This document shows positions 11,067 through 59,576 of a stretch of 64,000 nt of DNA, in pieces. The notes beneath the pieces are model-generated. The model saw nothing but the letters and a program-made list of their open reading frames with translations, made no database searches and was not told the origin of the DNA. A program made the translations under genes and the position numbers. This DNA is from Minisyncoccota bacterium (lineage in GTDB: Bacteria; Patescibacteriota; Minisyncoccia; Phycocordibacterales; UBA1006), in assembly GCA_028697455.1 (NCBI GenBank), contig JAQVEZ010000003.1:42972-106971 (forward strand), in the 5' to 3' direction. Each line of letters begins with the position of its first letter. Within the stretch, counting starts at the first letter, position 1.

Positions 11067-11092
11067 CCAAAAAACACCTCTCGGTGTTTTTG
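11067..11092. terminator. bidirectional intrinsic terminator AAAAAACACCTCTCGGTGTTTTT, a member of a recurrent terminator family
   Basis: Hairpin flanked by A- and T-runs between convergent genes 10475-11044 (+) and 11109-12428 (-). Confidence 0.6.
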
Positions 11093-12428: not shown

Positions 12429-12488
12429 ACTCTTCTAGTATACCAACCTTAGCTTTGAATGCAAAACAAAAAACACCTCTCGGTGTCT

Positions 12489-32890: not shown

Positions 32891-32925
32891 AAATACCTGT
32901 CTCAACGAGACGGGTATTTTTATTT
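32891..32925 (+). terminator. intrinsic terminator (ATACCTGTCTC-AAC-GAGACGGGTAT followed by a T-run)
   Basis: Perfect 11-bp stem directly after the rpmA stop. Confidence 0.8.
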
Positions 32926-38609: not shown

Positions 38610-38617
38610 ACCCCTCT

Positions 38618-38646
38618 ATTATATCTTCTGCCCCCCCCCGAGTCAA
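38618..38646 (-). promoter_or_regulatory. Sigma70-type promoter TTGACT-17 bp-TATAAT with a G9 homopolymer in the spacer (C9 on the plus strand, 38631-38639); the ATG is 8 nt downstream of the -10 box. Candidate phase-variable promoter, ON length.
   Basis: Read directly. The coding strand is AAAAAACTTGACTCGGGGGGGGGCAGAAGATATAATAGAGGGGTATG. Confidence 0.65.
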
Positions 38647-38697
38647 GTTTTTTACAGCAATATAAAAAACACCTTTATAAAAAAGTGTTTTTATAAA

Positions 38698-40737
38698 CTA
38701 GATATCAATACGAACAAGCTTTGCGTTATTCTGAATAAAGAGTTTTCGAGGTTCTACATCTGCTCCCATCAAAGTATCAAAGATAAGATCAGCTTCAACC
38801 GCATCATCGATGGTCACCTGTTTGAGAATTCGAGTTTCTGGATTCATCGTCGTCTCCCAGAGCTCATCAGCGTTCATCTCTCCCAACCCTTTATATCGTT
38901 GAACGTGGATCTTGCTGCTTACTTTTTGCACCACATTCTCTTCTTCTTCCTCACCCGTATCACTTTCTCCCATATCAGTATCAGCAATCGTTGCTCCTAA
39001 CTCTCTGAGAATATCATCTCGCTCTTCATCAGAAAAGGCATACGAAACTGATTTTCCCTTTTTGATTTTGTAGAGTGGGGGTTGCGCAACATAAATATAT
39101 CCTGCCTCAATAAACTCTCGGAAATGACGGAAGAAAAAAGTCATTAATAAAGTTCGAATATGAGATCCATCAACATCCGCGTCGGTTGCGATAACGATTT
39201 TGTGATATCGAGCCTTCTCAATATCAAAGGTTTCTCCAATAGAAGTCCCAAAGGCAACGATCATTGATTTGATTTCATTATTAGCAAGCATCTTGTCCAA
39301 ACGAACTCGCTCAACGTTGAGAGGTTTTCCTCTCAAAGGAAGTATCGCCTGAGTCCTTCGGTCTCGTCCTTGTTTTGCTGTTCCTCCCGCAGAATCTCCC
39401 TCAACAATAAAGATCTCTGCCTCATCAGCATTTTTGGTTTGGCAGTCGGTGAGTTTTCCTGGAAGGGTCAATCCTTCGAGAGCTCCTTTTCGCAAAATAG
39501 AATCCTTTGCTGCTTTTGCTGCCTTACGAGCCTTGAGTGCAAGAATAGCTTTCTTTAAAATATTTTTTGCATCATCAGGATTCTCTTCAAGAAAATCTCC
39601 AAAAGCATCCCCAAACAACGACTCAACGGCTCCACGTGCTTCAGGAGAACCAAGCTTGTCTTTGGTCTGTCCCTCGAACTGAATCTCCTTCATTTTGACT
39701 GAGACCACCACAGAAATTCCTTCGAGAACATCTTCTCCCTGAAGGGCCCCTTCTTTTTCTGGAAGGATTTTATTTTTCTTGTTGTAGTTATTGAGGAGTC
39801 TCGTTAAGGCTGTCTTAAATCCTGTGATATGCATCCCTCCTCCTGGTGTTGGAATGTTATTGGCAAAAGCAACAACACGAGGGGTAATGTCATTAACATA
39901 TTGCAAGGCAACCTCAACTTGAATTCCTTCTTCACTTTCTTTTTCAACATGAAAAATATTTTTATGAACAGGTTTTTGATGAGTATTAAAATAGCGAATC
40001 ATTGAAACAACTCCTCCTTCAAAATAATAGGTCATTGAAGGAACCTCAAGCTGAAGATCTTCAAGATAAATAGCATCAAGAGTATCAAGAGCACCTTCAT
40101 AGTTTCGAGCATCAAGAATGCTTATTCTCAAATTCTTAACAAGGTAAGCTTGTTGTTGATAGTGCTTGATAATCTTCTCCCAATTAAATTCAATTTCATG
40201 GAAAATCTCGCTATCAGGCTGAAAGAGAACAATAGTTCCATTGTGGTCGGTTTTTCCAATTTTTTTAACAGGAGCAGCGATTTTTCCTTGGTGATATTCT
40301 TGGAAATAACGATTTCCATCCTTGTATACGTCAACACGAGTATGTGTTGAAAGAGCGTTCACCACCGAAGCTCCCACCCCGTGAAGCCCTCCAGAAAATT
40401 TATAGTTATCATTATTAAACTTACCTCCAGCATGCAAGGTTGTCATAATAACCTCAAGTGCTGATTTTCCTGTTTTTGGGTGAGTATCAACAGGAATTCC
40501 TCGTCCATTATCAACAACCCGAACATAATTATCAGGGAGAAGAACGATTTCAATATGGTTACAATAACCCGCCATCGCCTCATCTCTTGAGTTGTCAAAA
40601 ATCTCCTTAATAAGATGGTGGAGTCCATCAGGACCCGTTGATCCAATGTACATTCCAGGTCTTTTCCGAACTGGTTCGAGCCCTTCAAGAACGGAAATAT
40701 CACTTGCGGTATAAGCTTTTTTATTTTTTTCTGCCAT
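38698..40737 (-). CDS. gyrB: DNA gyrase subunit B
   Basis: GHKL ATPase …GLHHLIKEIFDNSRDEAMAGYC…, Toprim …EGDSAGG…, and the C-terminal GyrB tail. Confidence 0.9.
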   Translation of the reverse strand: MAEKNKKAYTASDISVLEGLEPVRKRPGMYIGSTGPDGLHHLIKEIFDNSRDEAMAGYCNHIEIVLLPDNYVRVVDNGRGIPVDTHPKTGKSALEVIMTTLHAGGKFNNDNYKFSGGLHGVGASVVNALSTHTRVDVYKDGNRYFQEYHQGKIAAPVKKIGKTDHNGTIVLFQPDSEIFHEIEFNWEKIIKHYQQQAYLVKNLRISILDARNYEGALDTLDAIYLEDLQLEVPSMTYYFEGGVVSMIRYFNTHQKPVHKNIFHVEKESEEGIQVEVALQYVNDITPRVVAFANNIPTPGGGMHITGFKTALTRLLNNYNKKNKILPEKEGALQGEDVLEGISVVVSVKMKEIQFEGQTKDKLGSPEARGAVESLFGDAFGDFLEENPDDAKNILKKAILALKARKAAKAAKDSILRKGALEGLTLPGKLTDCQTKNADEAEIFIVEGDSAGGTAKQGRDRRTQAILPLRGKPLNVERVRLDKMLANNEIKSMIVAFGTSIGETFDIEKARYHKIVIATDADVDGSHIRTLLMTFFFRHFREFIEAGYIYVAQPPLYKIKKGKSVSYAFSDEERDDILRELGATIADTDMGESDTGEEEEENVVQKVSSKIHVQRYKGLGEMNADELWETTMNPETRILKQVTIDDAVEADLIFDTLMGADVEPRKLFIQNNAKLVRIDI

Positions 40738-44989: not shown

Positions 44990-45532
44990 TTAATTTGAAG
45001 CCTCACAAGGTACTCGTGCATAACTCATGATAGAGAATTCTTTGCTCGTATCAGGGACAAGCTCATCCCCACTTTCAATCAGGGGATAACGGAGTTTTTC
45101 AAGCCCAGTAAGACTTGTTCGATAGATTTCAGCTTCTTTTCCCTCTGATCCTTCAATTATATATGAATAAATGGCATTAATATTCTCTCCCTGTACAGTT
45201 CCCGAGATATTTCCTTGGTATCCATTTGTCATATCAGGGCCACTCTGCGTTCCTGATTTTGTTCCTTTAACTTCGTTCCCAGTAATCGTAATATCCAGAA
45301 ACTCATTCACGGTATAAGGCTCTTCAGGACTTACCTCGTGAGCATACGAGAAACACTGTCTCCCATCAAGGAGAGCAAATTTCGCCTGCTCTTCTCCCCC
45401 TTCTTCTTGATTCTCTTGTATCACCTCATTGTTGGACAGATTCTGTTCTTTTATCTCAGAATTTCTCACAACAACAAAAGCAATCATAAAAACAAAAATC
45501 AAAAACACAAACACATAAAAAGCTTTTTTCAT
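44990..45532 (-). CDS. membrane-anchored or secreted hypothetical protein
   Basis: N-terminal hydrophobic helix AFYVFVFLIFVFMIAFVVV. It shares a ~55-bp promoter/terminator module with paralog A (TGCTATACT 8 nt upstream of the ATG). Confidence 0.45.
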   Translation of the reverse strand: MKKAFYVFVFLIFVFMIAFVVVRNSEIKEQNLSNNEVIQENQEEGGEEQAKFALLDGRQCFSYAHEVSPEEPYTVNEFLDITITGNEVKGTKSGTQSGPDMTNGYQGNISGTVQGENINAIYSYIIEGSEGKEAEIYRTSLTGLEKLRYPLIESGDELVPDTSKEFSIMSYARVPCEASN

Positions 45533-45600
45533 ACCCTTTTAGTATAGCAACCTTAGCTTTAAATTAAAAACCAAAAAACACCTCCCAGTGTCTTTCCTAG

Positions 45601-46935: not shown

Positions 46936-47056
46936 ACTTTCATCGATTACTCTGAGTTATAGGGTCATCAGCTGTAAATGGAGCACCTTGCGATTTCTTG
47001 TAGGTTGCTGGTAGGTCATAGAGTTACATCTCTCGCTACACTCTCGATGAAAGTAC
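46936..47056 (-). ncRNA. SAM-I (S-box)-like riboswitch aptamer in the leader of the 46580-metK operon
   Basis: P1 is formed by UACUUUCAUCGAG (plus 47044-47056) pairing with UCGAUGAAAGUA (plus 36936-46947 region; 46936-46947). Internal elements parallel S-box conserved blocks: AGAGU, CAGCAACC, GGUGCUCC…CAGC, GAUGA. TGCTATACT lies 7 nt upstream of P1, and a downstream hairpin AAAGUAUA…UAUACUUU followed by a U-run (46914-46941) precedes the ATG. Confidence 0.55.
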
Positions 47057-47156
47057 CCTGAGTATAGCACAAAGAAAAAACCTTTGGTATGAGGTTTTTT
47101 GATGATGAGCATCATATAAAATTGCTTTGAGCTCTCGATACCGATATAATAAAAAT

Positions 47157-47483
47157 ATGGAAAACATGTTTAACCCAGATAAATTTAAGAAAGAAACAGC
47201 GGCACCACAACAAGAAGATCTTTATCCAGAAACCATTGCTCTCGAAGATGGAGATGAGATTGTCAGAGTAAGTGTTGGTGATTTATTTCGATGGGATGGC
47301 CCTGTTGAGGAATATCCTCTTTTTAAATTATCAACGATCTACAAAGACCCTGACAATGATTTTTCAACTCATTTTTCCTTTCAGACACAAAAGCCTGACG
47401 GAACATGGGAAGAAGAAAACCAATCACACATGATTAACGAAGAACAATTCAAAAAACTATACCTCAAACACAAAATAGGATAA
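47157..47483 (+). CDS. hypothetical protein
   Basis: ORF followed by a strong terminator at 47488-47522. The start was set at MENMF because TATAAT lies 6 nt upstream. Confidence 0.4.
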   Translation: MENMFNPDKFKKETAAPQQEDLYPETIALEDGDEIVRVSVGDLFRWDGPVEEYPLFKLSTIYKDPDNDFSTHFSFQTQKPDGTWEEENQSHMINEEQFKKLYLKHKIG

Positions 47484-47487
47484 CAGC

Positions 47488-47522
47488 CTAAAACACCCAA
47501 TACTTCGTATTGGGTGTTTAAG
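47488..47522 (+). terminator. intrinsic terminator (AAACACCCAATAC-TTC-GTATTGGGTGTTT)
   Basis: 13-bp perfect stem after the stop of the 47157-47483 ORF. It marks the approximate left edge of the AT-rich island. Confidence 0.75.
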
Positions 47523-47683
47523 ATCATATGCTCCCCTTGTTGGACGCATTCAGAACCCTTAATTGGAATAAGATAGAACAAGAATTAGAATTTAGCGGTA
47601 TTCTAAGTTTCTTTGAAATTAGTTATACTTAAATAGCAGGCTCGCAGGGAGCCACCCCTGAAGGTGGCTGAAAATTAATTAGG

Positions 47684-47794
47684 CGTTGATTTTCGATGTT
47701 CTTTGACGAGTACCTTCTTGCCGTTTTTCAGCGTACGGTAATGTTTACGAACTTCAACAATCTTTTTGCCTTTCTCTGTTTTCGCCATAGAAAG
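47684..47794 (-). CDS. tiny basic protein (36 aa) with weak resemblance to the N-terminal half of ribosomal protein bL33. Divergently transcribed from the 514-aa island gene.
   Basis: Manual translation gives MAKTEKGKKIVEVRKHYRTLKNGKKVLVKEHRKSTPN (compare bL33 MAK…HFYTTTKNKR…). Not in the ORF track. Confidence 0.25.
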
Positions 47795-47821
47795 CTTTAA
47801 GATTAAAGTTTTTAATAAATA

Positions 47822-47862
47822 CTGTCATCGACCTTTGACAGCTAGTTGTCATCTGTCGCAGA
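47822..47862. promoter_or_regulatory. operator-like cluster of TGTCA/TGACA half-sites (CTGTCA-N8-TGACAG plus a direct-repeat TGTCATC) in the divergent promoter region of the island
   Basis: Read directly between the 47794 (-) and 47958 (+) starts. Confidence 0.35.
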
Positions 47863-47957
47863 TTGAAACAATACTTACCTTCCGAAGTGGCTCTCTATGA
47901 GCCTTTTCTTATTTTATACTTATTGAAAATACTTGTAAACTATTGTAAAGTGTAAGA

Positions 47958-49502
47958 ATGAGCGGTTTACATTTTGATATTGAAAACAATTCAAAAAATT
48001 ACCTAGATGAAAAGGAGCTTTTTATGCTTTTCTATTTATTAAAGAATAAGCGTATATCTACATATAGCGGTGTGTTTGTACCTAACCCTAAGCAAGTACT
48101 TATCAAGCCAGATACTACCCCTGAGGATTTATGGGAAAGAATGAATTACAGAGGGCAATCTGTAGTTGTTTTAAATCACTTGTTAAATCTGGGAAAAAAT
48201 TTAGATGAGAAAGGTTTTTCAATATATTGCAACGCTGACTATTCTCTAGTAGAAGGTGGATTTTTAACTGATGATTTTCATAAAGAAATGTACGATTATT
48301 TGAATCTTTCTGAATCTGAACGCAGAAAAGATACTATACTGAATAAAGAACAGAAAGACTTTCTTGAAGAGGTAATTGCAGGAAAACTAGACTTAAAAGA
48401 TATTAATACAAGTGTGCAGTTTACTAAGTTAGCAAACCCTCCCGTTGAATGTTATAGAGAATGTATTTTAAATAAAAAAGCTGATGAAAGATTTATTGAG
48501 TTAATAAATAAGCTTGTTACTAATTATGACGGCGGATTATGGAAAACAGAAGATATAGAAGAATTTTTAAATATCTGGTATCAATCAAATAAAAAACTGG
48601 TAGTAGACAGCGAGCAAGGAATTTTTTATGAAGATAATCAAAAAAAGCTATCTCGTTTAATTTTTGAAAATGTTGAGATTCAATTGGTTTTAAAAGATAC
48701 TCAAAAACTAGAAGAATATTTAAATGACTATCTCAATCTCTATAAAAATGACAAATTAAAAGGATTAAGCAGAACAGGGCTTACTAGAAGTTTCTTTTCT
48801 TCGGGTTATGCGGAAGATATAAATAAAAGCTTTTATGGATACAAAAGACAAAGAGATATTTTAATAAAGCATATTGAAGCTGTTTATAACGAATACCAAA
48901 GAAAAGACTTAGAAATTACAAATCCATACATAGAACCTGAGTATATTGGCGATGAAAAAATCGGTACGGTAAAAATAAAACCAGTTGAAGAAAACAAAGA
49001 AAGAGATTCTTTTCTCTTCGTACATACAATGATAACTCTTGAAAAAGAAATGTATTTAAATATTAATGATTATTCATATGGTACTAAGGAGATGTTTGAT
49101 TTATACGACAGAGGTTTTTTGTTTGAAGTTACTTTAAATTCAATGCCTATTGAAGAAGAAAATAGTAAAGAACCTACAGTACAAAATGATACGGTTTATT
49201 TTGATACTGAGGTTTCAAAGATTTTATGTAATGGGAATGAAATAAAAATAACAAAAGGTAAAGATATTTATTATGCAATTAAGTATCTATTTGAAAGAAA
49301 GGATACTTATGAAGAATGTTTTTATGATGAAATTAGAGATGATTCTGAGTTAAATGACGGCAAAAAAAGGACTGACAAAAATATTTATGATGCCTTAATG
49401 CAATTCAACAAAAGACTTATAAATAAAGGAATTGATGACCTTTTTGTGATTAATTTTCGCTCAATAAAGATAAGAAATAAATACAAGATAGTTACACTAT
49501 AA
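47958..49502 (+). CDS. hypothetical protein, 514 aa, island cargo with no recognisable domain
   Basis: Long ORF at ~30% GC, followed by the terminator hairpin AATCC-TTCG-GGATT plus T-run at 49541-49562. Confidence 0.5.
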   Translation: MSGLHFDIENNSKNYLDEKELFMLFYLLKNKRISTYSGVFVPNPKQVLIKPDTTPEDLWERMNYRGQSVVVLNHLLNLGKNLDEKGFSIYCNADYSLVEGGFLTDDFHKEMYDYLNLSESERRKDTILNKEQKDFLEEVIAGKLDLKDINTSVQFTKLANPPVECYRECILNKKADERFIELINKLVTNYDGGLWKTEDIEEFLNIWYQSNKKLVVDSEQGIFYEDNQKKLSRLIFENVEIQLVLKDTQKLEEYLNDYLNLYKNDKLKGLSRTGLTRSFFSSGYAEDINKSFYGYKRQRDILIKHIEAVYNEYQRKDLEITNPYIEPEYIGDEKIGTVKIKPVEENKERDSFLFVHTMITLEKEMYLNINDYSYGTKEMFDLYDRGFLFEVTLNSMPIEEENSKEPTVQNDTVYFDTEVSKILCNGNEIKITKGKDIYYAIKYLFERKDTYEECFYDEIRDDSELNDGKKRTDKNIYDALMQFNKRLINKGIDDLFVINFRSIKIRNKYKIVTL

Positions 49503-49566
49503 AACACTATAAGTAAAACAAAATAAAGCATTTTATATCCTGAAGTTAATCCTTCGGGATTTTATT

Positions 49567-49731
49567 TATGCAGGAAAATATCAAACAAGAAAATAATCTA
49601 GAAAACCTTGATTTTGAATCAAAGCAAAATCTTGTTGGTTTTTTTGATTTGCTCTTGAAAATTGATATGCGAATCAATCCTGATTTATACAAAGAAGATT
49701 ATCAACCTAAAAAAGAACAAGAAATATGATA
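49567..49731 (+). CDS. small acidic protein (54 aa) translationally coupled (ATGA overlap) to the Rep-like gene
   Basis: Manual translation gives MQENIKQENNLENLDFESKQNLVGFFDLLLKIDMRINPDLYKEDYQPKKEQEI. The stop overlaps the start of the 49726 gene. Confidence 0.3.
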
Positions 49732-50829
49732 GATACAATTATTATCAACATTACTAGAAGCAAGGTAAGAATGCTTTCAGGAGAACGCTGGGATTTAATT
49801 GCGAAAAAGGACTTTTATTCCAAGTTTGCAAGGAACCCCACCAAAAGACAAAAAGAAAGTGATAGATACTACCCTCGTTTGACAGGAGTACAAAGAGCAG
49901 GAAGTGAATCAATCGTAAAGATAGAGTTTTCAATTCCCAAGCTTCTATACTTAAACAATCTTGATGAGCTAGAAGAGAAAGATTTTAAAGAAGTAATTAA
50001 AACACTTCACGAAAGACTGAAAGATATGAGCGTCTTAATATTTGAAAAAGACCTTATCAACGCAGATGTATCTGCAGTTCATTATTCAAAAAACATAGTG
50101 CTAACAAGTGGATATACAGCAAAACATATTATTTCAGAATTGCAGAAAATAAATCTTAATAAACTGAATGATTTAACAAAGACAAGGTTTATGAATAGTG
50201 GAGAAAGTTTACAAGGATATTCAATTTCTAACTCATTTGTCTTTTATGACAAAATATCTGACTTACAAAAAGATGAAAAACGAGCGATAGACAGAGAACA
50301 GAATCCGTATCAAAGGAGTTTATTTAGCTCTTTAAAAGATGAAGAAATACTACGCTTTGAAGTAAGACTTTCACAAAAGAGAAAGTTGAATACTCTATTC
50401 AAGCAATATGGATTCAAAACGAACCCTACATTTCAAGAAGCTTTTTCACTAGATAAAGCTTTAAAAGTGATGACTGAGTATTGGAATGAAAAAATAGATA
50501 AAAACAAATATGTTTTATTTACTTATTCTGAAAACACAGAATCATTACTAAAAAAGATTAGTATTGCACGACCAAAATCACGACCGCAAACATTACTATC
50601 ACTTCTAGGATTAGTATCTTTTGCAAAAGATAATAAAGGCGGATTAAGAGAATTAAGGACAATACTTACTGCACGAATTACTGATAGAGCTTGGTATTCA
50701 ATAGTTAAAAATTTGAAGACTATTTCAAAAGATTTGGAATCATTAAGCGAGCTAGATTGGTATCAGGAAGTTTCAAAACAGATTAAAAATTATAAGCCAT
50801 ACAAGACAAAAAAGTTATCAAAAGCATAG
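49726..50829 (+). CDS. Rep_trans-like rolling-circle replication initiator (pT181 RepC / Tn916-Orf20-like)
   Basis: ESLQGYSISNSFVFYDKISDLQKDEK resembles the RepC block …[22 protein letters not shown], and EILRFEVRLSQKRKL resembles HLWRVEIELKRD. Confidence 0.45.
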   Translation: MIDTIIINITRSKVRMLSGERWDLIAKKDFYSKFARNPTKRQKESDRYYPRLTGVQRAGSESIVKIEFSIPKLLYLNNLDELEEKDFKEVIKTLHERLKDMSVLIFEKDLINADVSAVHYSKNIVLTSGYTAKHIISELQKINLNKLNDLTKTRFMNSGESLQGYSISNSFVFYDKISDLQKDEKRAIDREQNPYQRSLFSSLKDEEILRFEVRLSQKRKLNTLFKQYGFKTNPTFQEAFSLDKALKVMTEYWNEKIDKNKYVLFTYSENTESLLKKISIARPKSRPQTLLSLLGLVSFAKDNKGGLRELRTILTARITDRAWYSIVKNLKTISKDLESLSELDWYQEVSKQIKNYKPYKTKKLSKA

Positions 50830-50870
50830 ATTTGCAATGTAAACTATTGTCAAGTATAATATAAACAATT

Positions 50871-51692
50871 ATGACTAAAGAAATTAAAAATAAACAAGAC
50901 ATTACCCTCTTTGAACAACAAGAAGTCAGAAAAGTATGGCACAAAGAAAAGTGGCATTTTGCAATTATTGATGTTGTAAAAATTCTTACTGATTCTGTAC
51001 AACCTGAAGGGTATATCAAGGATATGAGAAGGCGTGATAAGGAGCTTTCTGAAGGGTGGGGGCAAATTGCCACCCTCCTTTCCATAGATACAAAAGGAGG
51101 TAAACAAAAGATGAATTGTGCTGACTTGGAAGGTATTTTCCGTATTATTCAATCAATTCCCTCTCCAAAAGCAGAACCATTTAAACGCTGGCTCGCAAAA
51201 GTTGGTAAAGAGCGAATTGATGAAATAGCGAATCCTGAATTGGCAGTGAACAGAGCAAAAGAAATTTACGAAAAGAAAGGATATGAAAAAGACTGGATTG
51301 ATAAACGAATGCGAGGTATTGCTGTTAGAAATACTTTAACAGACGAATGGAAAGAAAGAGATATAAAAGGTATTGAATACGGAATCCTGACAAACGAAAT
51401 TTACAAAGGTACTTTTGAACAAGACCATAAATCTTTAATGAAGATAAAAGGTTTGGATAAAAAGAAAGGAGACAATTTACGAGACCATATGGGAGATGTT
51501 GAGCTTATTTTAACAATGCTCGCTGAAGCGACTTCAACAGAAATTACAAAGAGCAAAGACTCAAAAGGAATGAATGAGATAAAGCAGGATGTAAAGAAAG
51601 GAGGACAAATTGCTGGTAATACACGAAAGAAGATTGAAGCTGAGACTGGTAAAAAAGTTATTACTAAAAGTAACCGCAAAGAATTGAAATAA
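50871..51692 (+). CDS. DinD-like / Bro-N domain protein (DNA-damage-inducible protein D family)
   Basis: Bro-N-like N-terminus EVRKVWHKEKWHFAIIDVVKILTD, and a C-terminal block KGLDKKKGDNLRDHMGDVELILTMLAEATSTEITKSKD that matches E. coli DinD KGLKKNQKILDHMGSTELAANLFRATQTEEKLKRD. Confidence 0.6.
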   Translation: MTKEIKNKQDITLFEQQEVRKVWHKEKWHFAIIDVVKILTDSVQPEGYIKDMRRRDKELSEGWGQIATLLSIDTKGGKQKMNCADLEGIFRIIQSIPSPKAEPFKRWLAKVGKERIDEIANPELAVNRAKEIYEKKGYEKDWIDKRMRGIAVRNTLTDEWKERDIKGIEYGILTNEIYKGTFEQDHKSLMKIKGLDKKKGDNLRDHMGDVELILTMLAEATSTEITKSKDSKGMNEIKQDVKKGGQIAGNTRKKIEAETGKKVITKSNRKELK

Positions 51693-51693
51693 T

Positions 51694-51879
51694 ATGAGCA
51701 ACAAACAAGAGAAAGAATTTTACAAATCGGAAGATTTAGCTGAAAAGCTAGATGTAAACATAATGACGATTTATCGTTATATCAAAGCTGGCAGATTGAA
51801 AGCACATAAGATTGGTAAGGAATTTAGAATTGAACAAAAAGAATTTTTGAATTTTCTTAAAAATACAAAAACCAAATAA
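51694..51879 (+). CDS. Excisionase-family HTH (HTH_17 / MerR-like) DNA-binding protein
   Basis: …VNIMTIYRYIKAGRLKAHKIGKEFRI… is the typical Xis/HTH_17 signature; 61 aa. Confidence 0.65.
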   Translation: MSNKQEKEFYKSEDLAEKLDVNIMTIYRYIKAGRLKAHKIGKEFRIEQKEFLNFLKNTKTK

Positions 51880-51884
51880 TCAAT

Positions 51885-52691
51885 ATGAGTAAGACAAAAA
51901 AAACTAAAATAAAGACTAACGTTGTATACAATGAAAGTTGTTTGGAAACTATGGCAAAAATGCCAGATAATTTTGTAGACTTAACTGTCACCTCTCCTCC
52001 TTATGATAATTTGCGGGATTATGGTGGAAACCCTTTTCCTTTTAAGGAGTTTATGTTAATTGCAAAAGAATTACACCGAGTAACTAAAGACGGTGGTATT
52101 GTTGTTTGGGTTGTTGGAGACCAAACCATAAAAGGAAATGAGACGGGAACATCTTTTAAACAAGCACTCTACTTCAAAGAAGTTGGTTTTAAATTGTTCG
52201 ATACAATGATTTACCAAAAGACTCCCAGGGGTGCAGTTGGTAATAATAAAACATATTGGCAAACTTTTGAGTATATGTTTGTTCTTAGTAAAGGAACCCC
52301 GAAAAGTATTAACTTAATTAAGGACAGAGAAAACAAAAGTGCTAGGGATGGAGATAATGGAACCAAGAGACTTAAGGATGGTACTCTGATTAAACAAAAA
52401 AGGAAGGGTTATTCACAATACGGCAGAAGAACTAACGTCTGGGAATATCTAATAGGCAGAGGACATTCTGCAAGTGATAATATTGCGTATGAACATCCAG
52501 CCATATTTCCAGAGAAACTAGCAGAAGACCATATTATTTCCTGGAGCAATAAAGGAGATATCGTTTATGACCCATTTATGGGAAGTGGAACAACAGCAAA
52601 GATGGCAATCATAAATAAAAGAAAATATATTGGAAGTGAGTTATTTAGTGAATATATAGAAATTATAAATAAAAGAATTAAAAATATATGA
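51885..52691 (+). CDS. DNA methyltransferase, N4-cytosine/N6-adenine family (pfam01555-like, beta-class order IV…I)
   Basis: Motif IV TVTSPPYDN near the N-terminus, …HPAIFPEKLAEDHI…, and motif I IVYDPFMGSGTTAKMA near the C-terminus. Confidence 0.8.
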   Translation: MSKTKKTKIKTNVVYNESCLETMAKMPDNFVDLTVTSPPYDNLRDYGGNPFPFKEFMLIAKELHRVTKDGGIVVWVVGDQTIKGNETGTSFKQALYFKEVGFKLFDTMIYQKTPRGAVGNNKTYWQTFEYMFVLSKGTPKSINLIKDRENKSARDGDNGTKRLKDGTLIKQKRKGYSQYGRRTNVWEYLIGRGHSASDNIAYEHPAIFPEKLAEDHIISWSNKGDIVYDPFMGSGTTAKMAIINKRKYIGSELFSEYIEIINKRIKNI

Positions 52692-53146
52692 TTTGTACAG
52701 AGTGTAATAAAAATGAAGCATTAAAGGGTGAATTTTGCGAATCTTGTTTTAATGAAACTAAAATATGCCGTAGGTGTCAAAAGCAGAAAAGTATTTTTGA
52801 ATTTGAAAAAAATCAAAAGAGTATAGCTGGAAAAGTTTCTAGGCGGGGTGAATGTAAAGAATGCAGAAGTTGGAAAAAACCAATAAACCAGAAAGCTCGT
52901 ACTGAATATGAAAAAAATAATCCGCCTACCCCGATAGGAGAATCGTTTACTTGTCCTGTCTGTAAGAAAACTTTTATTCGCCAATTCAAAAATGATGTTG
53001 TATTAGAGCACGACCACAAGACTGGTGAAATAAGGGGGTGGCTTTGCAGAATGTGTAACAATGGTATGGGTATGATGGAAGATGATATTGGAATTTTGGA
53101 ACGAGCAATTAAATGGCTAAAAGGTACATTATCCATATTTCTATAA
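52688..53146 (+). CDS. Endonuclease VII-family HNH (His-Me finger) nuclease, Cys-rich
   Basis: DHDHKTGEIRGWLCRMCNNGMG is the EndoVII/HNH core. There are multiple CxxC pairs, and the start overlaps the MTase stop (ATGA). Confidence 0.65.
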   Translation: MICTECNKNEALKGEFCESCFNETKICRRCQKQKSIFEFEKNQKSIAGKVSRRGECKECRSWKKPINQKARTEYEKNNPPTPIGESFTCPVCKKTFIRQFKNDVVLEHDHKTGEIRGWLCRMCNNGMGMMEDDIGILERAIKWLKGTLSIFL

Positions 53147-53150
53147 AAAT

Positions 53151-54650
53151 ATGAAAGCAATAATCTTAGCTAGAGTATCAACAGAAGAACAAAAAGAAGC
53201 TGGAAACTCATTGCCAGCTCAGATAACTCGCATAGAAAGATATTGTGAGCAACAGAAATTTGAGGTTATTGATACCTTTTCTTTTGACGAATCTGCATAT
53301 AAAACAAAAAGAGATGAGTTTGATAAAATACTAGATTTTCTAAAAACTAATAAAGAAAAAGTAGCAGTTTGTTTTGATAAGGTTGATAGACTTTCTCGTA
53401 ATGTTTTTGATAAAAGAGTTTCAGTGCTTTATGAAAAAGCTGTAAATGACGAGATTGAATTACACTTTGTATCAGACGGACAAGTTATTAATTCAAATAT
53501 GTCTGCTGTTGCGAAGTTTCAATTTGGAATGAGTCTAGGACTAGCGAAGTATTACTCAGACGCAATTTCAGACAATGTTAAAAGAGCTTTTGAAAAGATG
53601 AGAGCTGAAGGTAAATGGACTGGAAGAGTGAGAATCGGATACAAGAATACTACAGATGAAAATGGAAATAGAGATATTGCTTTAGATGAAGAGCGGGCTG
53701 ATTTGGTACATAGAATTTTTGAAATGTATGCGACAGGCAATCACTCTATTGCGAGTATCCTAAAAGAGATGAATAAACTTGGATTAAAAAGCTTAAATGG
53801 AAATAAGCTTTCTAAGAGTAATATTGACTTAATCTTGAATGATACTTTTTATTATGGAATGGCGTATTCCAAGAAATATAATTATTACTATCCGCACAAA
53901 TATGAAAAGCTTGTATCAAAGGAATTATTTTTTAAGTGTAAAGAAGTACGACTAGATAGAGCGAGAAAACCCTCAAAGGTTGATTCAAATAACTTTATAT
54001 TTAAAGGGCTTTTGACCTGCCAAAAATGTGGATGTTCTGTTACTCCTGAGATAAAGACTAAGAAGAGCGGAAAGCAATATATTTACTATTCTTGTACTAA
54101 TTCTAAGGGTATTTGCCAAAGAGAATATATACCTGAAAAGACCCTCCTAGAGCCGATTCTAGCCGTTCTAGAGCGATTTGAGAGCATTACACAGGATACA
54201 CAGGACTATCTTCTAAAAGAGCTTAGAAAGAATAATGAAGCTGAGGTTGAATTTCATAAAAAACAGCTAAAACGAATCAATACAGAATATCAAACAATAC
54301 AATCTAAAATTAGCAGACTTACAGACCTTCTTTTAGACAATAGTATTACTAAGGAATCATATGAAGAAAAACTGCAAGAGCTTAAACACAAACAGCTAAA
54401 GCTTGGAGTAGAAATTGATTTATATACAAAAGCAGATAAAGACTATTTATTGACTGTATCTAAAGTACTTTCTCTCGCTACAAGAGTAAAAACAATATTT
54501 GAAAGTTCTGAAATACACGAAAAACGAGCATTGTTAAATTATTTAATTCAGAACCCTACTCTAAACGGAAAAAAGCTATATTTTTCAATAGCTTCTCCAT
54601 ATAATTTGGTACTAGATTTAGCTAGTAAACCTACTTGGCTCCCCGGGTAG
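53151..54650 (+). CDS. Large serine recombinase (integrase)
   Basis: Catalytic AIILARVSTEEQ…DRLSRN resolvase domain, a recombinase domain, a zinc ribbon CQKCGCSV…YYSCTNSKGICQ, and a coiled-coil. The last 15 nt overlap tRNA-Asn on the opposite strand. Confidence 0.88.
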   Translation: MKAIILARVSTEEQKEAGNSLPAQITRIERYCEQQKFEVIDTFSFDESAYKTKRDEFDKILDFLKTNKEKVAVCFDKVDRLSRNVFDKRVSVLYEKAVNDEIELHFVSDGQVINSNMSAVAKFQFGMSLGLAKYYSDAISDNVKRAFEKMRAEGKWTGRVRIGYKNTTDENGNRDIALDEERADLVHRIFEMYATGNHSIASILKEMNKLGLKSLNGNKLSKSNIDLILNDTFYYGMAYSKKYNYYYPHKYEKLVSKELFFKCKEVRLDRARKPSKVDSNNFIFKGLLTCQKCGCSVTPEIKTKKSGKQYIYYSCTNSKGICQREYIPEKTLLEPILAVLERFESITQDTQDYLLKELRKNNEAEVEFHKKQLKRINTEYQTIQSKISRLTDLLLDNSITKESYEEKLQELKHKQLKLGVEIDLYTKADKDYLLTVSKVLSLATRVKTIFESSEIHEKRALLNYLIQNPTLNGKKLYFSIASPYNLVLDLASKPTWLPG

Positions 54651-54710
54651 GATTCGAACCTACGGCCAATCGGTTAACAGCCGATTGCTCTACCGCTGAG
54701 CTACCGGGGA
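54636..54710 (-). tRNA. tRNA-Asn (anticodon GTT), CCA encoded
   Basis: Manual fold gives a 7-bp acceptor TCCCCGG/CCGGGGA, a D-arm GCTC-AGCGGTA-GAGC, an anticodon stem ATCGG/CCGAT with loop CTGTTAA, and a T-arm GTAGG-TTCGAAT-CCTAC. An upstream promoter TTGCAT-17 bp-TATATT sits 8 nt before +1. Confidence 0.85.
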
Positions 54711-55812: not shown

Positions 55813-56592
55813 TCAAAGTTGATGCTCAGCAATCTGAGTTCTTTTTATTCTCAACGACAGTGCCCCACATCCATAATGTTCTCCAATAGAGTGTACCAAA
55901 GAACGAATGTAGGTTCCCGAAGATACCCCAAATCGTGCTGTAAAGACAGTATAACGGTTATCAGGCCTCTCGTCCAAATATCTTTCCCAGTGTGATTTAA
56001 TTTCTTCTTGTCGAAAATCTCCTTCAATAAAGTCAATGACCGAAAGATATTCTGAGATAAGTTCCCCACGCTTAAGCTCTCTGTGAGAAACAAGCTCAGC
56101 AGAAAAAACTTCACGTGATTCTTTGGGAAAAATAATGCCATCAAGCTGATCTTCACGTGCATATTGCCAGAGAGACTTTCCTTTGATTGTTTTTGATGAG
56201 TATGGTGGATATTCCTGCTCCTGAACCCCTGCAAGAGATCCAACAAAAGAGCTCAAGTCTTTTTTATGAGGAAAGGGTTTTGGGTCTTTTGTCTCTTTGA
56301 GGATTCCAAGAGCATCATAAGTATCAGAAGAAACCCCAAAGAGAAAATCAACTTCATAGGTTTTGGAAAGTTTGTTATAGCGGTCCTTGTGGTGGACATC
56401 TTCATCTGTAAGGAGGATCATCAACCCTTCGGCAAGAGGATCGAGTCGTCCTGCGTAGGTAATCTTTGCATCTTGAAATTCAGGATGGGTAGATCGGAAT
56501 CTCTCAAGGGTTATCAAAAGAGTTTCTCCGTATTTTTTATTCCAATGAATCACTGCCATCGTGCCCATTATACTCATAAAACCAAAAAACAC
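55813..56592 (-). CDS. truB: tRNA pseudouridine(55) synthase TruB-like
   Basis: YAGRLDPLAEGLMILL (GTLDPxAxGxL catalytic-Asp motif) and KTYEVDFLFGVSSDTYDALG (KxYxV…G.xTDTxDxxG). Confidence 0.7.
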   Translation of the reverse strand: MFFGFMSIMGTMAVIHWNKKYGETLLITLERFRSTHPEFQDAKITYAGRLDPLAEGLMILLTDEDVHHKDRYNKLSKTYEVDFLFGVSSDTYDALGILKETKDPKPFPHKKDLSSFVGSLAGVQEQEYPPYSSKTIKGKSLWQYAREDQLDGIIFPKESREVFSAELVSHRELKRGELISEYLSVIDFIEGDFRQEEIKSHWERYLDERPDNRYTVFTARFGVSSGTYIRSLVHSIGEHYGCGALSLRIKRTQIAEHQL

Positions 56593-56622
56593 CTCTCGGT
56601 GTTTTGTGTTCTCTATATAGAT

Positions 56623-57846
56623 TTAGTTCTCTTGCCCCTGCATTGCAGAAAGGAGTTGTTGGTAGAGTCCCAAGAGTTCAGTGTAGATACTGATCAATGG
56701 GTTGTTATTTACAAATCCGTTTTGAGGTCTACAGAAGGTAGTAACTCCGGCAGTACAGAATCGAGTTCCGAAGATGTTTGAGGATGAACCTTTTTGCGGA
56801 GGAAATTCTCCAAGAAGGATTCTGTTATTGTCATCAGATTCAAAAGCTACTGCAACAAATTTATTATCAGCATAAGCAACAGAAATATACCCGTGTTGTG
56901 GGTCGGTATCAACGGTCTCCCAGTTAATCCCATCCTTAGATATAGCAACAGCCTTTCCTGGTTCACTCAAATTATTATCGTAGTCATACGATACCATCAC
57001 AAAGTATCCATTTCCAAAAGCAATATCTTCCCACATTGCCTTGGTGTCAGGAGAAGAATAAGCTGTCCAATTCTTACCATCGCTTGATACAATAATATCT
57101 TGAGCAGCTCCATCATCTTCTGAGATGGCTACGAATTTACCATTTCCATAGGCAACACTGGTCCAAGATCCACCTCCAGCCACTGGTGCTGTAAAGTATT
57201 GCCAGGTTTGTCCTTTGTCTTCGGATACAGCGATGTGTTTTCCATCAGTTGCTGCTTGATTTTTAGACCCAACAACAACGATTTTTCCATCTCCATAAGC
57301 AATACCAGACCAATATTTAGATGCCTCTTCTCCTTTCGCCACCCAGTTTAATCCATCAGTTGAAATGTATATTTGTTTATAAGCACCTTTCCCGCTATAG
57401 CTTCGTGAATAATCAACTGCAACAAAAACATCATCAACAAAAGCGAGGTCTCCTATTTGAATTCCAGAAAAACTCCCCAAAGGAACGCCAGGAACTCCTG
57501 TCCAAGTTTCTCCCCCATCAGTTGATCGATAAAAAACATTACCAGACCAAGCATTTCCAAGAACAAAAGCTCCGTTTCCGTAAGCAATTCCAGTAAACCA
57601 TTGGCTCCCTCCCCAAGTAAATGGGGCTAGTTCCCAATTTTTACCATCTTCTGAGATCATAATACGATTTGTCCCATTTGAAGAAACTGCAACAAATTTC
57701 CCTTCACCATAGGTTACAGCACGCCAAGCATTTTGTGCAGGAGCTTCGATACTTGTCCATTCAATTTCATTTGCATAAGCATCTGTCCCTAAGAATGCAA
57801 GACTTAAAAAAAATATTGATAATAATATAAAATTAATTTTCTTCAT
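56623..57846 (-). CDS. Secreted BNR/Asp-box repeat beta-propeller protein with the conserved two-cysteine C-terminal domain (paralog C), driven by a G10-tract promoter
   Basis: Signal peptide MKKINFILLSIFFLSLAFLGTDAYA. Asp-boxes ISEDGKNWEL, RSTDGGETWTGV, ISTDGLNWVAKG, VSEDKGQTWQYF, VSSDGKNWTAY, ISKDGINWETV. C-terminus SSNIFGTRFCTAGVTTFCRPQNGFVNNNPLISIYTELLGLYQQLLSAMQGQEN. Confidence 0.7.
   Translation of the reverse strand: MKKINFILLSIFFLSLAFLGTDAYANEIEWTSIEAPAQNAWRAVTYGEGKFVAVSSNGTNRIMISEDGKNWELAPFTWGGSQWFTGIAYGNGAFVLGNAWSGNVFYRSTDGGETWTGVPGVPLGSFSGIQIGDLAFVDDVFVAVDYSRSYSGKGAYKQIYISTDGLNWVAKGEEASKYWSGIAYGDGKIVVVGSKNQAATDGKHIAVSEDKGQTWQYFTAPVAGGGSWTSVAYGNGKFVAISEDDGAAQDIIVSSDGKNWTAYSSPDTKAMWEDIAFGNGYFVMVSYDYDNNLSEPGKAVAISKDGINWETVDTDPQHGYISVAYADNKFVAVAFESDDNNRILLGEFPPQKGSSSNIFGTRFCTAGVTTFCRPQNGFVNNNPLISIYTELLGLYQQLLSAMQGQEN
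56637..56790. repeat. Copy 3 of the conserved 3'-end cassette
   Basis: See 11122-11275. Confidence 0.7.
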
Positions 57847-57855
57847 ATATTTTTT

Positions 57856-57886
57856 ATTGTATCATTCTGCCCCCCCCCCGAGTCAA
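57856..57886 (-). promoter_or_regulatory. Duplicated sigma70-type promoter TTGACT-19 bp-TACAAT with a G10 homopolymer in the spacer (C10 on the plus strand, 57870-57879). Candidate phase-variable promoter, apparently at a suboptimal (OFF) spacer length.
   Basis: Read directly. The coding strand is AAAACTTGACTCGGGGGGGGGGCAGAATGATACAATAAAAAATATATG, and the 27-bp core CTGCCCCCCCCC(C)GAGTCAAGTTTTTT is shared with 38628-38652. Confidence 0.6.
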
Positions 57887-57948
57887 GTTTTTTGAGGAAA
57901 AATAAAAACAATCTGTGGATAAATAAAAAACACTTTCATAAGTGTTTT

Positions 57949-58650
57949 TTATTCAAGCCAGTGTTCTTTTTCGAGAGCAGCTTGAGCTGCGTTCTGTTGA
58001 GCTTCTCGTTTACTGTTTCCCTGTCCTTCAGCTATTTTTTTCTCTCCAAAATAAATAGCAATAACAAATTTTTTGTTATGGTCAGGGCCTTCTTCTGAGA
58101 GGGTTTCATAGTGAGGAGTTTCATTATATACCTCTTGGGCTTTTTCTTGGACATAGGATTTTGCATCTCGCCAAAGCCCTTCATCGATAATGGTATCAAT
58201 ATTTTTCAAAAGGTGTGTTTCAATAAAAAGCTTTGCCGCGTCATAACCCACATCAAGATACAAGGCTCCCAAAAAAGATTCAAAAGTATTCGCAAGAATA
58301 TAGTCTCGTGCCTTTCCCTGGTCTTTTGCTTCTCCTTTGGAAAGCATCAAGACGTCATTCATTCCAAGCTTTCGTGCTACCTCAGAAATACTTTCCGTTC
58401 TTACCAGCGCCGAACGATAAGCAGTGAGCTGTCCTTCAGGATCATCAGGATACCGAAGATAGAGAAAGTGCGTCACCACGAGTTCCAACACAGCATCTCC
58501 CAAGAATTCAAGGCGCTCGTTGTGCTCAAGCCCTGTGTCTTTATGTTCGTTGATATAGGAACGGTGAATAAAAGCTTGGCGCAATAATTCTTTATCAGAA
58601 AATTCAAGGTGTATTTTTTTTTCAAAATCTAAATAAGCTTGTAAGTCCAT
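57949..58650 (-). CDS. rnc: Ribonuclease III
   Basis: RNase III signature ERLEFLGDAVLELVVTHFLY plus a C-terminal dsRBD. Confidence 0.93.
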   Translation of the reverse strand: MDLQAYLDFEKKIHLEFSDKELLRQAFIHRSYINEHKDTGLEHNERLEFLGDAVLELVVTHFLYLRYPDDPEGQLTAYRSALVRTESISEVARKLGMNDVLMLSKGEAKDQGKARDYILANTFESFLGALYLDVGYDAAKLFIETHLLKNIDTIIDEGLWRDAKSYVQEKAQEVYNETPHYETLSEEGPDHNKKFVIAIYFGEKKIAEGQGNSKREAQQNAAQAALEKEHWLE

Positions 58651-58655
58651 AAAAT

Positions 58656-59576
58656 CTATTCGTTAAGTCCCTCTTTTGCGGTGATAATTTCAATTGACTG
58701 AATAATCATCTGAGAAACATCTTCATACATACTGAGTTCTGAAATTTCTTCCAAAGGAAACCAGCGCACATCATCAAGTCCTCCAGTTCCTTCTTCGAGC
58801 GTTGGTTGAGTAAAGCCTGCTTTTCCAAGGAAATAAGTGACATTTTTTCTTACAGGACCTCGTTCAGGGTGATAGGCGATATATTCGTTTTCTCCTATTT
58901 TTTGAACGATCTCAATATCCCAATTGGTTTCTTCTTTGACCTCGCGAATGGTTCCTTCTTCGAGCGTTTCTCCCTCATCGATTGTCCCCTTTGCAAGAGT
59001 CCAATATCCAAAAACATCATGCACCATCCCAAGATGGACAGCGCCTTGATCATCAACAGCGTATACTACAGCGGCTCCCTTATTATCAATAGGCATTTCT
59101 TCATAAGGAACGTCAGGAATCTTTTTCTTGGTTTCTTGATCTTTCCCTGGTTCACCCATTTCTTTATAGATAGCACCCATGACACCATTAACGAATTTAT
59201 TACTCTTGGCTCCTCCGAATTTTTTGGCAAGTTCAATAGATTCGTTGAGAGCAACCTTGGGAGGAATAAGTTCATTATCAGCAAAAAGAAGCTCGTAAAT
59301 TCCTAGACGAAGAATATTACGATCAACCACAGTAATTTTATCAATGGTCCAACCGGGTGAAGCTTTTTCGATAAGTTCATCAAGAATCACTCTTCTTGAT
59401 GCAATGGACTCGAGGTTTTCCAAAAGCTCATGGAGTTCCTTTTCATCGATGGTGACTTTTTGAAAAGAATTCACGATATATTCAAGATAATCCTTGAGCG
59501 AAGTATTTGAATAATTATGAACATCCCATTCGTAGAGTGTTTGTAAAAGAATCGTTCGATAGAGTTGTCTATTCAT
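58656..59576 (-). CDS. nusB: NusB-NUDIX fusion protein: a transcription antitermination NusB-like N-domain fused to a NUDIX hydrolase C-domain
   Basis: Residues 1-140 are NusB-like (…DRNILRLGIYELLF…AKKFGGAKSNKFVNGVMGAI…), and 170-300 are NUDIX with the box GTIDEGETLEEGTIREVKEETNW. It is a single uninterrupted ORF. Confidence 0.6.
   Translation of the reverse strand: MNRQLYRTILLQTLYEWDVHNYSNTSLKDYLEYIVNSFQKVTIDEKELHELLENLESIASRRVILDELIEKASPGWTIDKITVVDRNILRLGIYELLFADNELIPPKVALNESIELAKKFGGAKSNKFVNGVMGAIYKEMGEPGKDQETKKKIPDVPYEEMPIDNKGAAVVYAVDDQGAVHLGMVHDVFGYWTLAKGTIDEGETLEEGTIREVKEETNWDIEIVQKIGENEYIAYHPERGPVRKNVTYFLGKAGFTQPTLEEGTGGLDDVRWFPLEEISELSMYEDVSQMIIQSIEIITAKEGLNE

What the first reader, a model, noticed from the sequence alone, without database searches (positions are those of the whole stretch)
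57856..57886. Second copy of the G-tract promoter (G10, 19-bp spacer), predicted OFF state of paralog C
The core CTGCCCCCCCCC(C)GAGTCAAGTTTTTT is the same as at 38628-38652, but one extra C/G plus a 1-nt insertion lengthens the spacer to 19 bp, which is predicted to give weak or no activity. It is kept as a separate locus because each paralog would switch independently. In both loci the promoter sits immediately downstream of a convergent gene's terminator hairpin (the gyrB and rnc terminators), and the ATG lies 8-9 nt after the -10 box, giving a leaderless mRNA.
Basis: seen in the sequence. Interest (0 to 1): 0.65.

Follow-up and report, generated by a model that had tools for sequence, protein, structure and literature searches.

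The report
Variable G-run in surface-protein promoter
A run of ten G's sits between the two recognition boxes of the promoter of a secreted propeller-shaped protein in an uncultivated ultra-small (Pacebacteria) bacterium, and near-identical strains differ in the length of this run at a sister gene, so it is probably a slippage-driven expression dial of the kind known from Neisseria and the syphilis bacterium, here seen in a new bacterial group.

Summary
The sequence is as described. On the minus strand it reads TTGACT, a 19-nt spacer (C, G10, CAGAATGA), TACAAT, 9 nt, then ATG of a 407-aa secreted beta-propeller protein (paralog C). Paralog B has the same core with G9 and a 17-nt spacer. These are the only G/C runs of 7 or more in the 64-kb window (37.5% GC). 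One detail is wrong: rnc and gyrB are co-directional with C and B, not convergent.

The organism is a Candidatus Pacebacteria MAG with at least 8 paralogs. The same promoter module occurs at four loci in related assemblies, with G9, G10 or G11. At the tsaE-linked paralog, two contigs differ over 2,185 nt by 3 substitutions plus one G in the tract (G9 vs G10). At this locus the only other assembly also has G10.

"OFF" is not shown. C carries a TGn extended -10, and a relative has lost both the tract and the -35 box yet keeps an intact gene. A -10 box next to the start codon is common across the window.

Verdict: a probable promoter-spacer contingency locus, a known mechanism, with no report found for this bacterial group.

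The parts
57881..57886 (-). -35 hexamer TTGACT of the paralog C promoter
   Evidence: identical hexamer and flanks at locus B
57870..57879 (-). G10 homopolymeric tract (C10 on the + strand) inside the promoter spacer
   Evidence: same length in the independent Logan contig L006
57862..57880 (-). 19-nt spacer CGGGGGGGGGGCAGAATGA; its last three bases TGA (57864-57862) form a TGn extended -10 motif
57856..57861 (-). -10 hexamer TACAAT
57844..57855 (-). 9-nt gap (AAAAAATAT) plus the ATG start codon; no Shine-Dalgarno sequence; predicted leaderless or 2-3-nt leader
   Evidence: window-wide pattern
57887..57893 (-). A-rich stretch AAAAAAC directly upstream of the -35 box, part of the core shared with locus B
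56623..57846 (-). Paralog C, 407 aa: signal peptide, 7-bladed beta-propeller, Cys-containing linker, conserved C-terminal helix
57914..57922 (-). Perfect DnaA-box 9-mer TTATCCACA, the only one in the window; conserved upstream of the C-type promoter in L001, L002 and L006
57921..57954 (-). Hairpin with U-tail: intrinsic terminator of the upstream co-directional rnc gene
   Evidence: -13.2 kcal/mol, z = -7.6
57949..58650 (-). rnc (RNase III), the upstream gene on the same strand
56607..57948 (-). About 1.3-kb cassette (terminator, DnaA box, G-tract promoter, paralog C) that is absent between rnc and truB in a related strain (L004)
56585..56605 (-). Terminator hairpin downstream of paralog C; it corresponds to the rnc terminator of the insertion-free strain
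38618..38646 (-). Sister promoter of paralog B: TTGACT, 17 nt (G9 at 38631-38639), TATAAT; no TGn
   Evidence: G9 also in L007
37368..38609 (-). Paralog B, 413 aa
11109..12465 (-). Paralog A, 439 aa, with a tract-free promoter (TTTGCA, 17 nt, TGG-TATACT, 8 nt, ATG)
   Evidence: the same promoter at this locus in other samples

Best explanation
The G10 run is a mutable homopolymeric tract in the spacer of a sigma-70-type promoter. That promoter drives a leaderless or nearly leaderless mRNA for one member of a family of at least 8 secreted beta-propeller proteins in a Candidatus Pacebacteria bacterium.

Inferred mechanism: slipped-strand mispairing during replication adds or removes a G. This changes the -35/-10 spacing (17 nt with G9-type copies, 19 nt here) and so changes how well RNA polymerase initiates. 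Each paralog carrying this portable promoter module would be dialled up or down independently, which diversifies the cell surface within a population.

The present G10 / 19-nt state is predicted to be sub-optimal, meaning reduced rather than necessarily off, because a TGn extended -10 is present.

Shown here: the anatomy, the restriction of long G/C runs to this position, tract-length differences between copies, and a tract-length difference between near-identical strains at a sister locus. Inferred: the effect on transcription, reversibility and rate, and surface exposure of the protein.
For: 1. Anatomy. TTGACT, 19 nt with G10, TG-n-TACAAT, 9 nt, ATG. The sister copy has an 11/12 consensus promoter at the optimal 17 nt.
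2. These are the only two G/C runs of 7 or more in a 37.5%-GC window. All such runs in the related loci fetched lie in the same promoter position.
3. The same module (AAAAAA[C]TTGACTC-Gn) occurs at four different loci, downstream of gyrB, rnc and PBP and upstream of tsaE, with G9, G10, G11, and G9/G10.
4. Same-locus polymorphism. L008 (SRR21722015) has G9 and L009 (SRR21722012) has G10. The encoded protein is identical, and there are only 3 substitutions in 2,185 nt.
5. The tract-free A-type promoter is stable across samples.
6. The product looks like a surface or secreted protein: signal peptide, 7-blade propeller, and a conserved lineage-specific C-terminal module. The family is mosaic, with conserved ends and unalignable middles, and is strain-variable in presence.
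7. Experimentally proven precedents exist. For porA, 11G/10G/9G give graded expression (PMC3639595). For T. pallidum tp0126 and tprL, expression is optimal at a 17-nt spacing and poly-G length varies in vivo (PMC7864442).
Against: - At this locus itself no length variation was seen. The window and L006 both have G10, and B is G9 in both the window and L007. Those contigs probably come from the same population as the MAG.
- The Logan contigs run through the tracts without breaking, so each sample has a dominant length.
- The single G9/G10 difference is between distinct (99.8% identical) strains. It shows mutability, not fast reversible switching, and homopolymer-length errors in short-read assemblies cannot be excluded.
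- C and L002, the two copies with out-of-range spacers (19 and 20 nt), both carry TGn extended -10 boxes.
- L001 has lost the -35 box and tract but keeps an intact gene. The -35 box and spacer may therefore matter little for C-type copies.
- There are no expression data.
Confidence: 0.6

Rival explanations
1. Extended -10 promoter with a passenger tract. Paralog C is transcribed from TGATACAAT largely independently of the -35 box. The G-tract is mutable, but its length has little effect on expression and drifts neutrally. C would then be ON, not OFF.
For: TGn is present in exactly the copies whose spacers are off-optimum: C at 19 nt and L002 at 20 nt. It is absent where the spacer is 17-18 nt and the -10 box is consensus TATAAT (B, L008, L009). 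L001 has a degenerate -35 box (a 2-nt deletion) and the tract replaced by AGAGAAGGGCGAGG, yet it keeps TGATATACT and an intact 403-aa ORF. TGn-type -10 boxes are frequent in this window, in 11 of the 28 start-proximal -10 boxes.
Against: A 10-11-nt G run is very unusual in this AT-rich genome, and it is retained next to a well-conserved TTGACT with an A-rich upstream stretch in several loci. That argues the -35 module is under selection. In the TGn-less copies the tract sets the spacing at exactly 17 or 18 nt.
Confidence: 0.25
2. Static inherited promoter feature. The G-run was simply copied along with a duplicated or recombined promoter module. The length differences are rare fixed indels, with no population-level switching of biological relevance.
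For: Tract lengths are identical in the window and in SRR22315504 at both loci. Contigs are not broken at the tracts. The promoter modules clearly move between loci by recombination: the gyrB locus carries the G-type in the window but the A-type in L003.
Against: Within the shared core the only difference between copies is tract length. G9 vs G10 occurs in strains 99.8% identical, so 1 of the 4 differences falls in 10 of 2,185 nt. By established knowledge of simple-sequence contingency loci, G/C runs of 9 or more are intrinsically unstable in every bacterium tested.
Confidence: 0.1
3. Homopolymer-length artefact. The reported G10 (and the G9/G10 difference between L008 and L009) is a sequencing or assembly miscall, so the 19-nt spacer is not real.
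For: Long G/C homopolymers are error-prone, and MAG and Logan contigs are consensus sequences. The window and L006 may derive from the same reads.
Against: Two different assemblers give G10 at C and G9 at B. Even with one G fewer the spacer would still be 18 nt, because of the separate 1-nt insertion. Lengths of 9, 10 and 11 recur consistently across samples.
Confidence: 0.05

Closest known systems
Neisseria meningitidis porA promoter poly-G tract
   Same: The G-tract lies between the -35 and -10 boxes of a surface-protein gene. Tracts of 9-11 G change the spacing and give graded expression (PMC3639595).
   Different: The organism here is an uncultivated Patescibacteria/CPR bacterium. The mRNA is (near-)leaderless. 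The promoter module is shared by several paralogs at different loci. No expression or switching data exist. Copy C has a TGn extended -10.
Treponema pallidum tp0126 / tpr (E, G, J, F, I, L) promoter poly-G tracts
   Same: A family of paralogous putative surface proteins, each with its own poly-G in or near the promoter. Transcription is optimal when the -35/-10 distance is 17 nt, and tract length varies in vivo (PMC7864442).
   Different: The protein family is unrelated (beta-barrel OMPs there, a beta-propeller with a C-terminal helix here). In several tpr genes the tract lies upstream of the -35 box rather than in the spacer. Here variation is shown only between strains.
Mycoplasma hyorhinis vlp gene family (poly-A tract in each promoter spacer)
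   Same: From my own knowledge (Citti & Wise 1995; Yogev et al. 1995, listed in the reference list of PMC4198240): several paralogous surface-protein genes in a genome-reduced bacterium have conserved 5' regions. Each has a homopolymer between the -35 and -10 boxes and switches independently, giving combinatorial surface mosaics.
   Different: The tract is poly-A, not poly-G. The vlp genes are clustered lipoprotein genes with internal repeats. Here the genes are dispersed, they are not lipoproteins, and only some paralogs (B, C, the tsaE-linked and PBP-linked copies) carry the tract.
Ycf48 / BNR-type 7-bladed beta-propellers (fold of the regulated protein)
   Same: The best structural matches of the AF2 model of paralog C are Ycf48 (Foldseek E = 1.7e-14, TM about 0.7 on the target).
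   Different: Sequence identity is only 14-16%. This protein has a signal peptide and a lineage-specific C-terminal Cys-helix module. Nothing suggests a photosystem role. NCBI's label 'sialidase family protein' is not backed by any Pfam hit above threshold.

Membership tests
Promoter-spacer homopolymeric-tract phase variation (porA / tp0126 / vlp type contingency locus) | A homopolymeric tract (about 8 nt or more) lies between recognisable -35 and -10 hexamers | tested here: met
   TTGACT, C-G10-CAGAATGA, TACAAT; sister copy at 11/12 consensus
Promoter-spacer homopolymeric-tract phase variation (porA / tp0126 / vlp type contingency locus) | Tract length differs between otherwise (near-)identical strains, or within a population, at the same locus | tested here: inconclusive
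   Met at the sister tsaE-linked locus: G9 vs G10 with 3 substitutions in 2,185 nt. Not seen at this locus: window and L006 are both G10, and these are probably the same population. Within-sample heterogeneity needs raw reads.
Promoter-spacer homopolymeric-tract phase variation (porA / tp0126 / vlp type contingency locus) | Tract length changes the level of transcription | not testable with these tools
   Needs reporter assays or metatranscriptomes. The 17-nt optimum and weak activity at 19 nt are general sigma-70 knowledge, and the TGn motif may buffer the effect.
Promoter-spacer homopolymeric-tract phase variation (porA / tp0126 / vlp type contingency locus) | High-frequency, reversible switching in a clonal population | not testable with these tools
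   The organism is uncultivated and only consensus contigs are available.
Promoter-spacer homopolymeric-tract phase variation (porA / tp0126 / vlp type contingency locus) | The regulated product is a surface or secreted determinant | tested here: met
   Met in silico only: N-terminal signal helix with an AYA|N cleavage-like site, a beta-propeller, a conserved C-terminal module, and a variable middle. Localisation has not been shown experimentally.
Leaderless (or near-leaderless) mRNA | The transcription start is at or within a few nt of the start codon, with no Shine-Dalgarno sequence | tested here: inconclusive
   The -10 box ends 9 nt before the ATG (8 nt in B) and there is no SD. In the window, 28 of 65 ORFs have a -10-like hexamer 5-11 nt before a start codon, against 4% of internal start-like codons. 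The transcription start site itself cannot be mapped here.
Extended -10 (TGn) promoter | TG lies one base upstream of the -10 hexamer | tested here: met
   aaTGaTACAAT at 57864-57856; absent in B.
Sialidase / BNR family (NCBI name of the product) | Pfam BNR/sialidase model above the gathering threshold | tested here: not met
   BNR_2 scores 20.7 bits against a cut-off of 31.4, and Sortilin-Vps10 scores 25 against 33. The model is a 7-bladed Ycf48-like propeller.
   The hairpin with U-tail is real, but rnc and gyrB are on the same strand as C and B. The arrangement is tandem, not convergent.

The most novel reading that the evidence does not exclude
An uncultivated CPR/Patescibacteria bacterium runs a Vlp-like combinatorial surface-variation system. 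It would have at least 8 dispersed paralogs of a secreted beta-propeller with a lineage-specific C-terminal anchor module. Their variable middles and promoter modules would be exchanged between loci by recombination at conserved ends. Several of them would be switched independently by G-tract slippage in a portable promoter module. As far as my searches show, this would be the first contingency-locus system reported for this group, and it would point to an arms race with a host cell or with phages.
Probability: 0.3. Interest if true: 0.7.

Novelty: new member of a known kind. Interest (0 to 1): 0.5.

Why it matters
Candidate Phyla Radiation bacteria are thought to live attached to host cells, and almost nothing is known about how they vary their surface. 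A family of secreted propeller proteins with mutable G-tract promoters, strain-variable gene presence and swapped promoter modules would be evidence for stochastic surface switching outside the classical pathogens.

It is directly testable with existing public reads by counting tract lengths per sample. It also gives candidate host- or phage-interaction proteins in this lineage. For annotation, it shows that promoter-proximal start codons (leaderless genes) are common in this genome.

Tried and rejected
- Exact-protein look-ups of paralogs C and B, truB and UDG found nothing. The MAG's own contigs are not in the position index, so the promoters of the other PHC89 paralogs (P0107, P0124, P0127, P0212) could not be read.
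- A JGI metagenome scan for AAAAAACTTGACTCGGGGGG gave 0 hits.
- The more general pattern TTGACTC-G8-N0-4-CAGAA gave only chance hits in high-GC Planctomycetota-like contigs in GTDB genomes and JGI metagenomes, and none in IMG/VR.
- A GTDB scan with the family's C-terminal peptide patterns gave 25 chance pattern hits and no true relative.
- A 54-aa C-terminal query in the word-indexed protein search returned a single hit, so that search was largely wasted.
- Rfam found nothing at the locus; the window has only one tRNA.
- Concerted evolution of the conserved 3' end: codon identity is 65-68% against 46% expected. This is too weak to claim gene conversion, and protein-level selection suffices.
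- DnaA-box clustering: only one perfect box, and 1-mismatch boxes are not above chance.
- Literature: no paper links phase variation by promoter tracts with CPR/Patescibacteria. The run accessions are not mentioned in any held paper.
- The NCBI 'sialidase' label was rejected.

Full report
**Observation.** On the minus strand the region reads AAAAAAC-TTGACT-C-G10-CAGAATGA-TACAAT-AAAAAATAT-ATG.
- The -35 box is at 57886-57881 and the G10 tract at 57879-57870.
- The spacer is 19 nt and the -10 box is at 57861-57856.
- The start codon is at 57846-57844.

Locus B reads AAAAAAC-TTGACT-C-G9-CAGAAGA-TATAAT-AGAGGGGT-ATG, with a 17-nt spacer and an 11/12 match to consensus.

The tracts are not chance events. 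G8 words occur 5 times (in 2 tracts) against 0.52 expected. These are the only two G/C runs of 7 or more in a 37.5%-GC window that has 102 A/T runs of that length.

One detail is wrong. rnc and gyrB lie on the same strand as C and B. The well-folding hairpins with U-tails directly upstream are therefore terminators of co-directional upstream genes, not convergent ones.

**Organism and gene family.**
- Paralog C is 100% identical to MDD3694219.1 of a Candidatus Pacebacteria (Paceibacterota, CPR) MAG.
- A (11109-12428), B (37368-38609) and C (56623-57846) are about 31% identical in their middle part. They share a signal peptide and a nearly invariant C-terminal 46 residues, IFGTRFC..TTFCRPQNGF.NNNPL..IYTELLGLYQQLLSAMQ.
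- A 194-aa protein (32924-33508) carries a diverged version of that module.
- The MAG has at least 8 members.
- The C-terminal module is found in only about a dozen 50%-identity clusters out of 1.84 billion. It is always C-terminal and sits on passengers of different sizes.
- The family is absent from GTDB species representatives.
- An AlphaFold model of C (pLDDT 81) shows a signal helix, a 7-bladed beta-propeller, a disordered Cys-containing linker and a C-terminal helix. The best PDB matches are Ycf48.
- No Pfam model reaches its threshold, so the database label 'sialidase family' is not supported.

**The promoter module elsewhere.** Look-ups of relatives and neighbours gave the following (table).
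- rnc locus: G10 in the window and in L006.
- gyrB locus: G9 in the window and in L007, but a tract-free A-type promoter in L003.
- PBP-yebC locus: G11 with a 20-nt spacer in L002. In L001 the -35 box and tract are degenerate (TTGCTC-AAGAGAAGGGCGAGG) upstream of an intact gene that is 82% identical to C.
- tsaE-linked locus: G9 with a 17-nt spacer in L008, and G10 with an 18-nt spacer in L009.

The last pair is the key result. The two contigs encode the identical 434-aa protein. Over 2,185 nt they differ by three substitutions and one G in the tract. Every G/C run of 7 or more in all loci fetched is one of these promoter tracts. The tract-free A-type promoter downstream of rpsI is stable in other samples. 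The tract is therefore demonstrably length-polymorphic in nature. That has not been shown at locus C itself, where the only other assembly (SRR22315504) is probably the same population as the MAG: its GyrB, Rnc and NusB-NUDIX proteins are identical.

**Mobility.**
- In L004, which has the same Rnc protein, rnc is followed directly by truB.
- In the window, about 1.3 kb is inserted between the rnc stop codon and the old rnc terminator. The insert carries a new terminator hairpin, a perfect DnaA box, the G-tract promoter and paralog C.
- The flanks are 97% identical on one side and 89% on the other.
- C is most similar (82%) to the copy that sits near dnaA in relatives, and about 107 nt of upstream sequence including the DnaA box came along with it.
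- All paralogs share 84-86% DNA identity over the last 145 nt or so, and their middles cannot be aligned. Codon-level evidence for gene conversion is weak.

**Leaderless layout.** A -10-like hexamer lies 5-11 nt before a candidate start codon in 28 of 65 window ORFs, including gyrB, truB and nusB. The rate at internal start-like codons is 4%. The 8-9-nt distance in B and C is therefore the normal habit of this genome, not a special property of these genes. With the usual start site 7 nt after the -10 box, the leader would be 2-3 nt long (inference).

**Mechanism and caveats.** The best explanation is a contingency locus of the porA / tp0126 / vlp kind. Slippage in the G-tract would change the -35/-10 spacing and thereby transcription. 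In porA, 11G, 10G and 9G give graded expression (PMC3639595). In T. pallidum, a 17-nt spacing is optimal and poly-G length varies in vivo (PMC7864442).

The claim that C is OFF is weaker, for three reasons.
- The 1-nt insertion creates TGATACAAT, an extended -10 box.
- The two copies with 19-20-nt spacers both have TGn, whereas the TGn-less copies sit at 17-18 nt.
- L001 shows that a C-type gene persists without a -35 box or a tract.

C may therefore be reduced rather than silent, or insensitive to tract length.

**Novelty.** The mechanism is classical. I found no report of it in CPR/Patescibacteria. The nearest case is a hypervariable intragenic repeat in a Gracilibacterium (PMC6851277). I rate it as a new member of a known kind, of moderate interest. 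It is directly testable with the public reads of the samples named above.

Noticed in passing
window 57914-57922 (- strand); L001 about 5945, L002 about 5940, L006 about 3733: The only perfect DnaA box (TTATCCACA) in the 64-kb window lies 27 nt upstream of the -35 box of paralog C. It is conserved in the C-type upstream region of relatives, where the gene sits about 5 kb from dnaA-dnaN. It may be a relic of the dnaA-proximal origin of the cassette, or a DnaA-regulated promoter.
   Followed up: partly
window 56607-57948 vs L004 3702-3730: Paralog C with its promoter is an insertion of about 1.3 kb between rnc and truB that a related strain lacks. The junctions fall in similar AAAACAC... terminator hairpins. 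The flanks are 97% identical on one side and 89% on the other, which suggests a recombination breakpoint.
   Followed up: yes
window 38610-38700 vs L003 420-500: At the orthologous gyrB-downstream locus, a relative carries the tract-free A-type promoter in place of the G-tract module, in front of a B-like gene (81% DNA identity). Promoter modules are exchanged between paralog loci.
   Followed up: yes
window 44990-45580 (- strand): A 180-aa protein with an N-terminal hydrophobic segment and no Pfam hit has an upstream region (tttaatttaaagctaaggttgcTATACTaaaagggtATG) closely resembling the A-type promoter of paralog A. The same promoter module therefore serves unrelated secreted or membrane proteins.
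   Followed up: partly
window about 47000-54710: A block of plus-strand genes sits in an otherwise minus-strand region: Bro-N domain protein, N6/N4 DNA methylase, endonuclease VII, and a large serine recombinase (53151-54650) whose end abuts or overlaps tRNA-Asn (54636-54710). It is probably an integrated phage-like element. The related strain L004 has different genes after the 347-aa protein.
   Followed up: partly
whole window: 43% of ORFs (28 of 65) have a -10-like hexamer, often TGn-extended, 5-11 nt before the start codon, and no Shine-Dalgarno sequence. Leaderless or near-leaderless mRNAs seem to be common in this Pacebacteria genome.
   Followed up: partly
window 32924-33508 (- strand): A 194-aa Gly/Asp-rich secreted protein carries a diverged copy of the family's C-terminal Cys-x7-Cys plus helix module. 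It also has a TTGAGT-18-TGgTATAAT promoter 7 nt from its ATG. The C-terminal module occurs in only about a dozen protein clusters in 1.84 billion representatives, always at the C-terminus.
   Followed up: partly
window 58656-59576 (- strand): The gene upstream of rnc encodes a NusB-NUDIX fusion protein (306 aa), an unusual domain combination seen in all related contigs.
   Followed up: no
window 11070-11091, 56585-56604, 57926-57949, 12475-12500; L008 925-950: Intrinsic terminators across the window and its relatives share the same stem sequence, AAACAC(C/T)-loop-(G/A)GTGTTTTT (5 matches against 0.01 expected). These near-identical hairpins flank the paralog cassettes and could serve as recombination sites.
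   Followed up: partly
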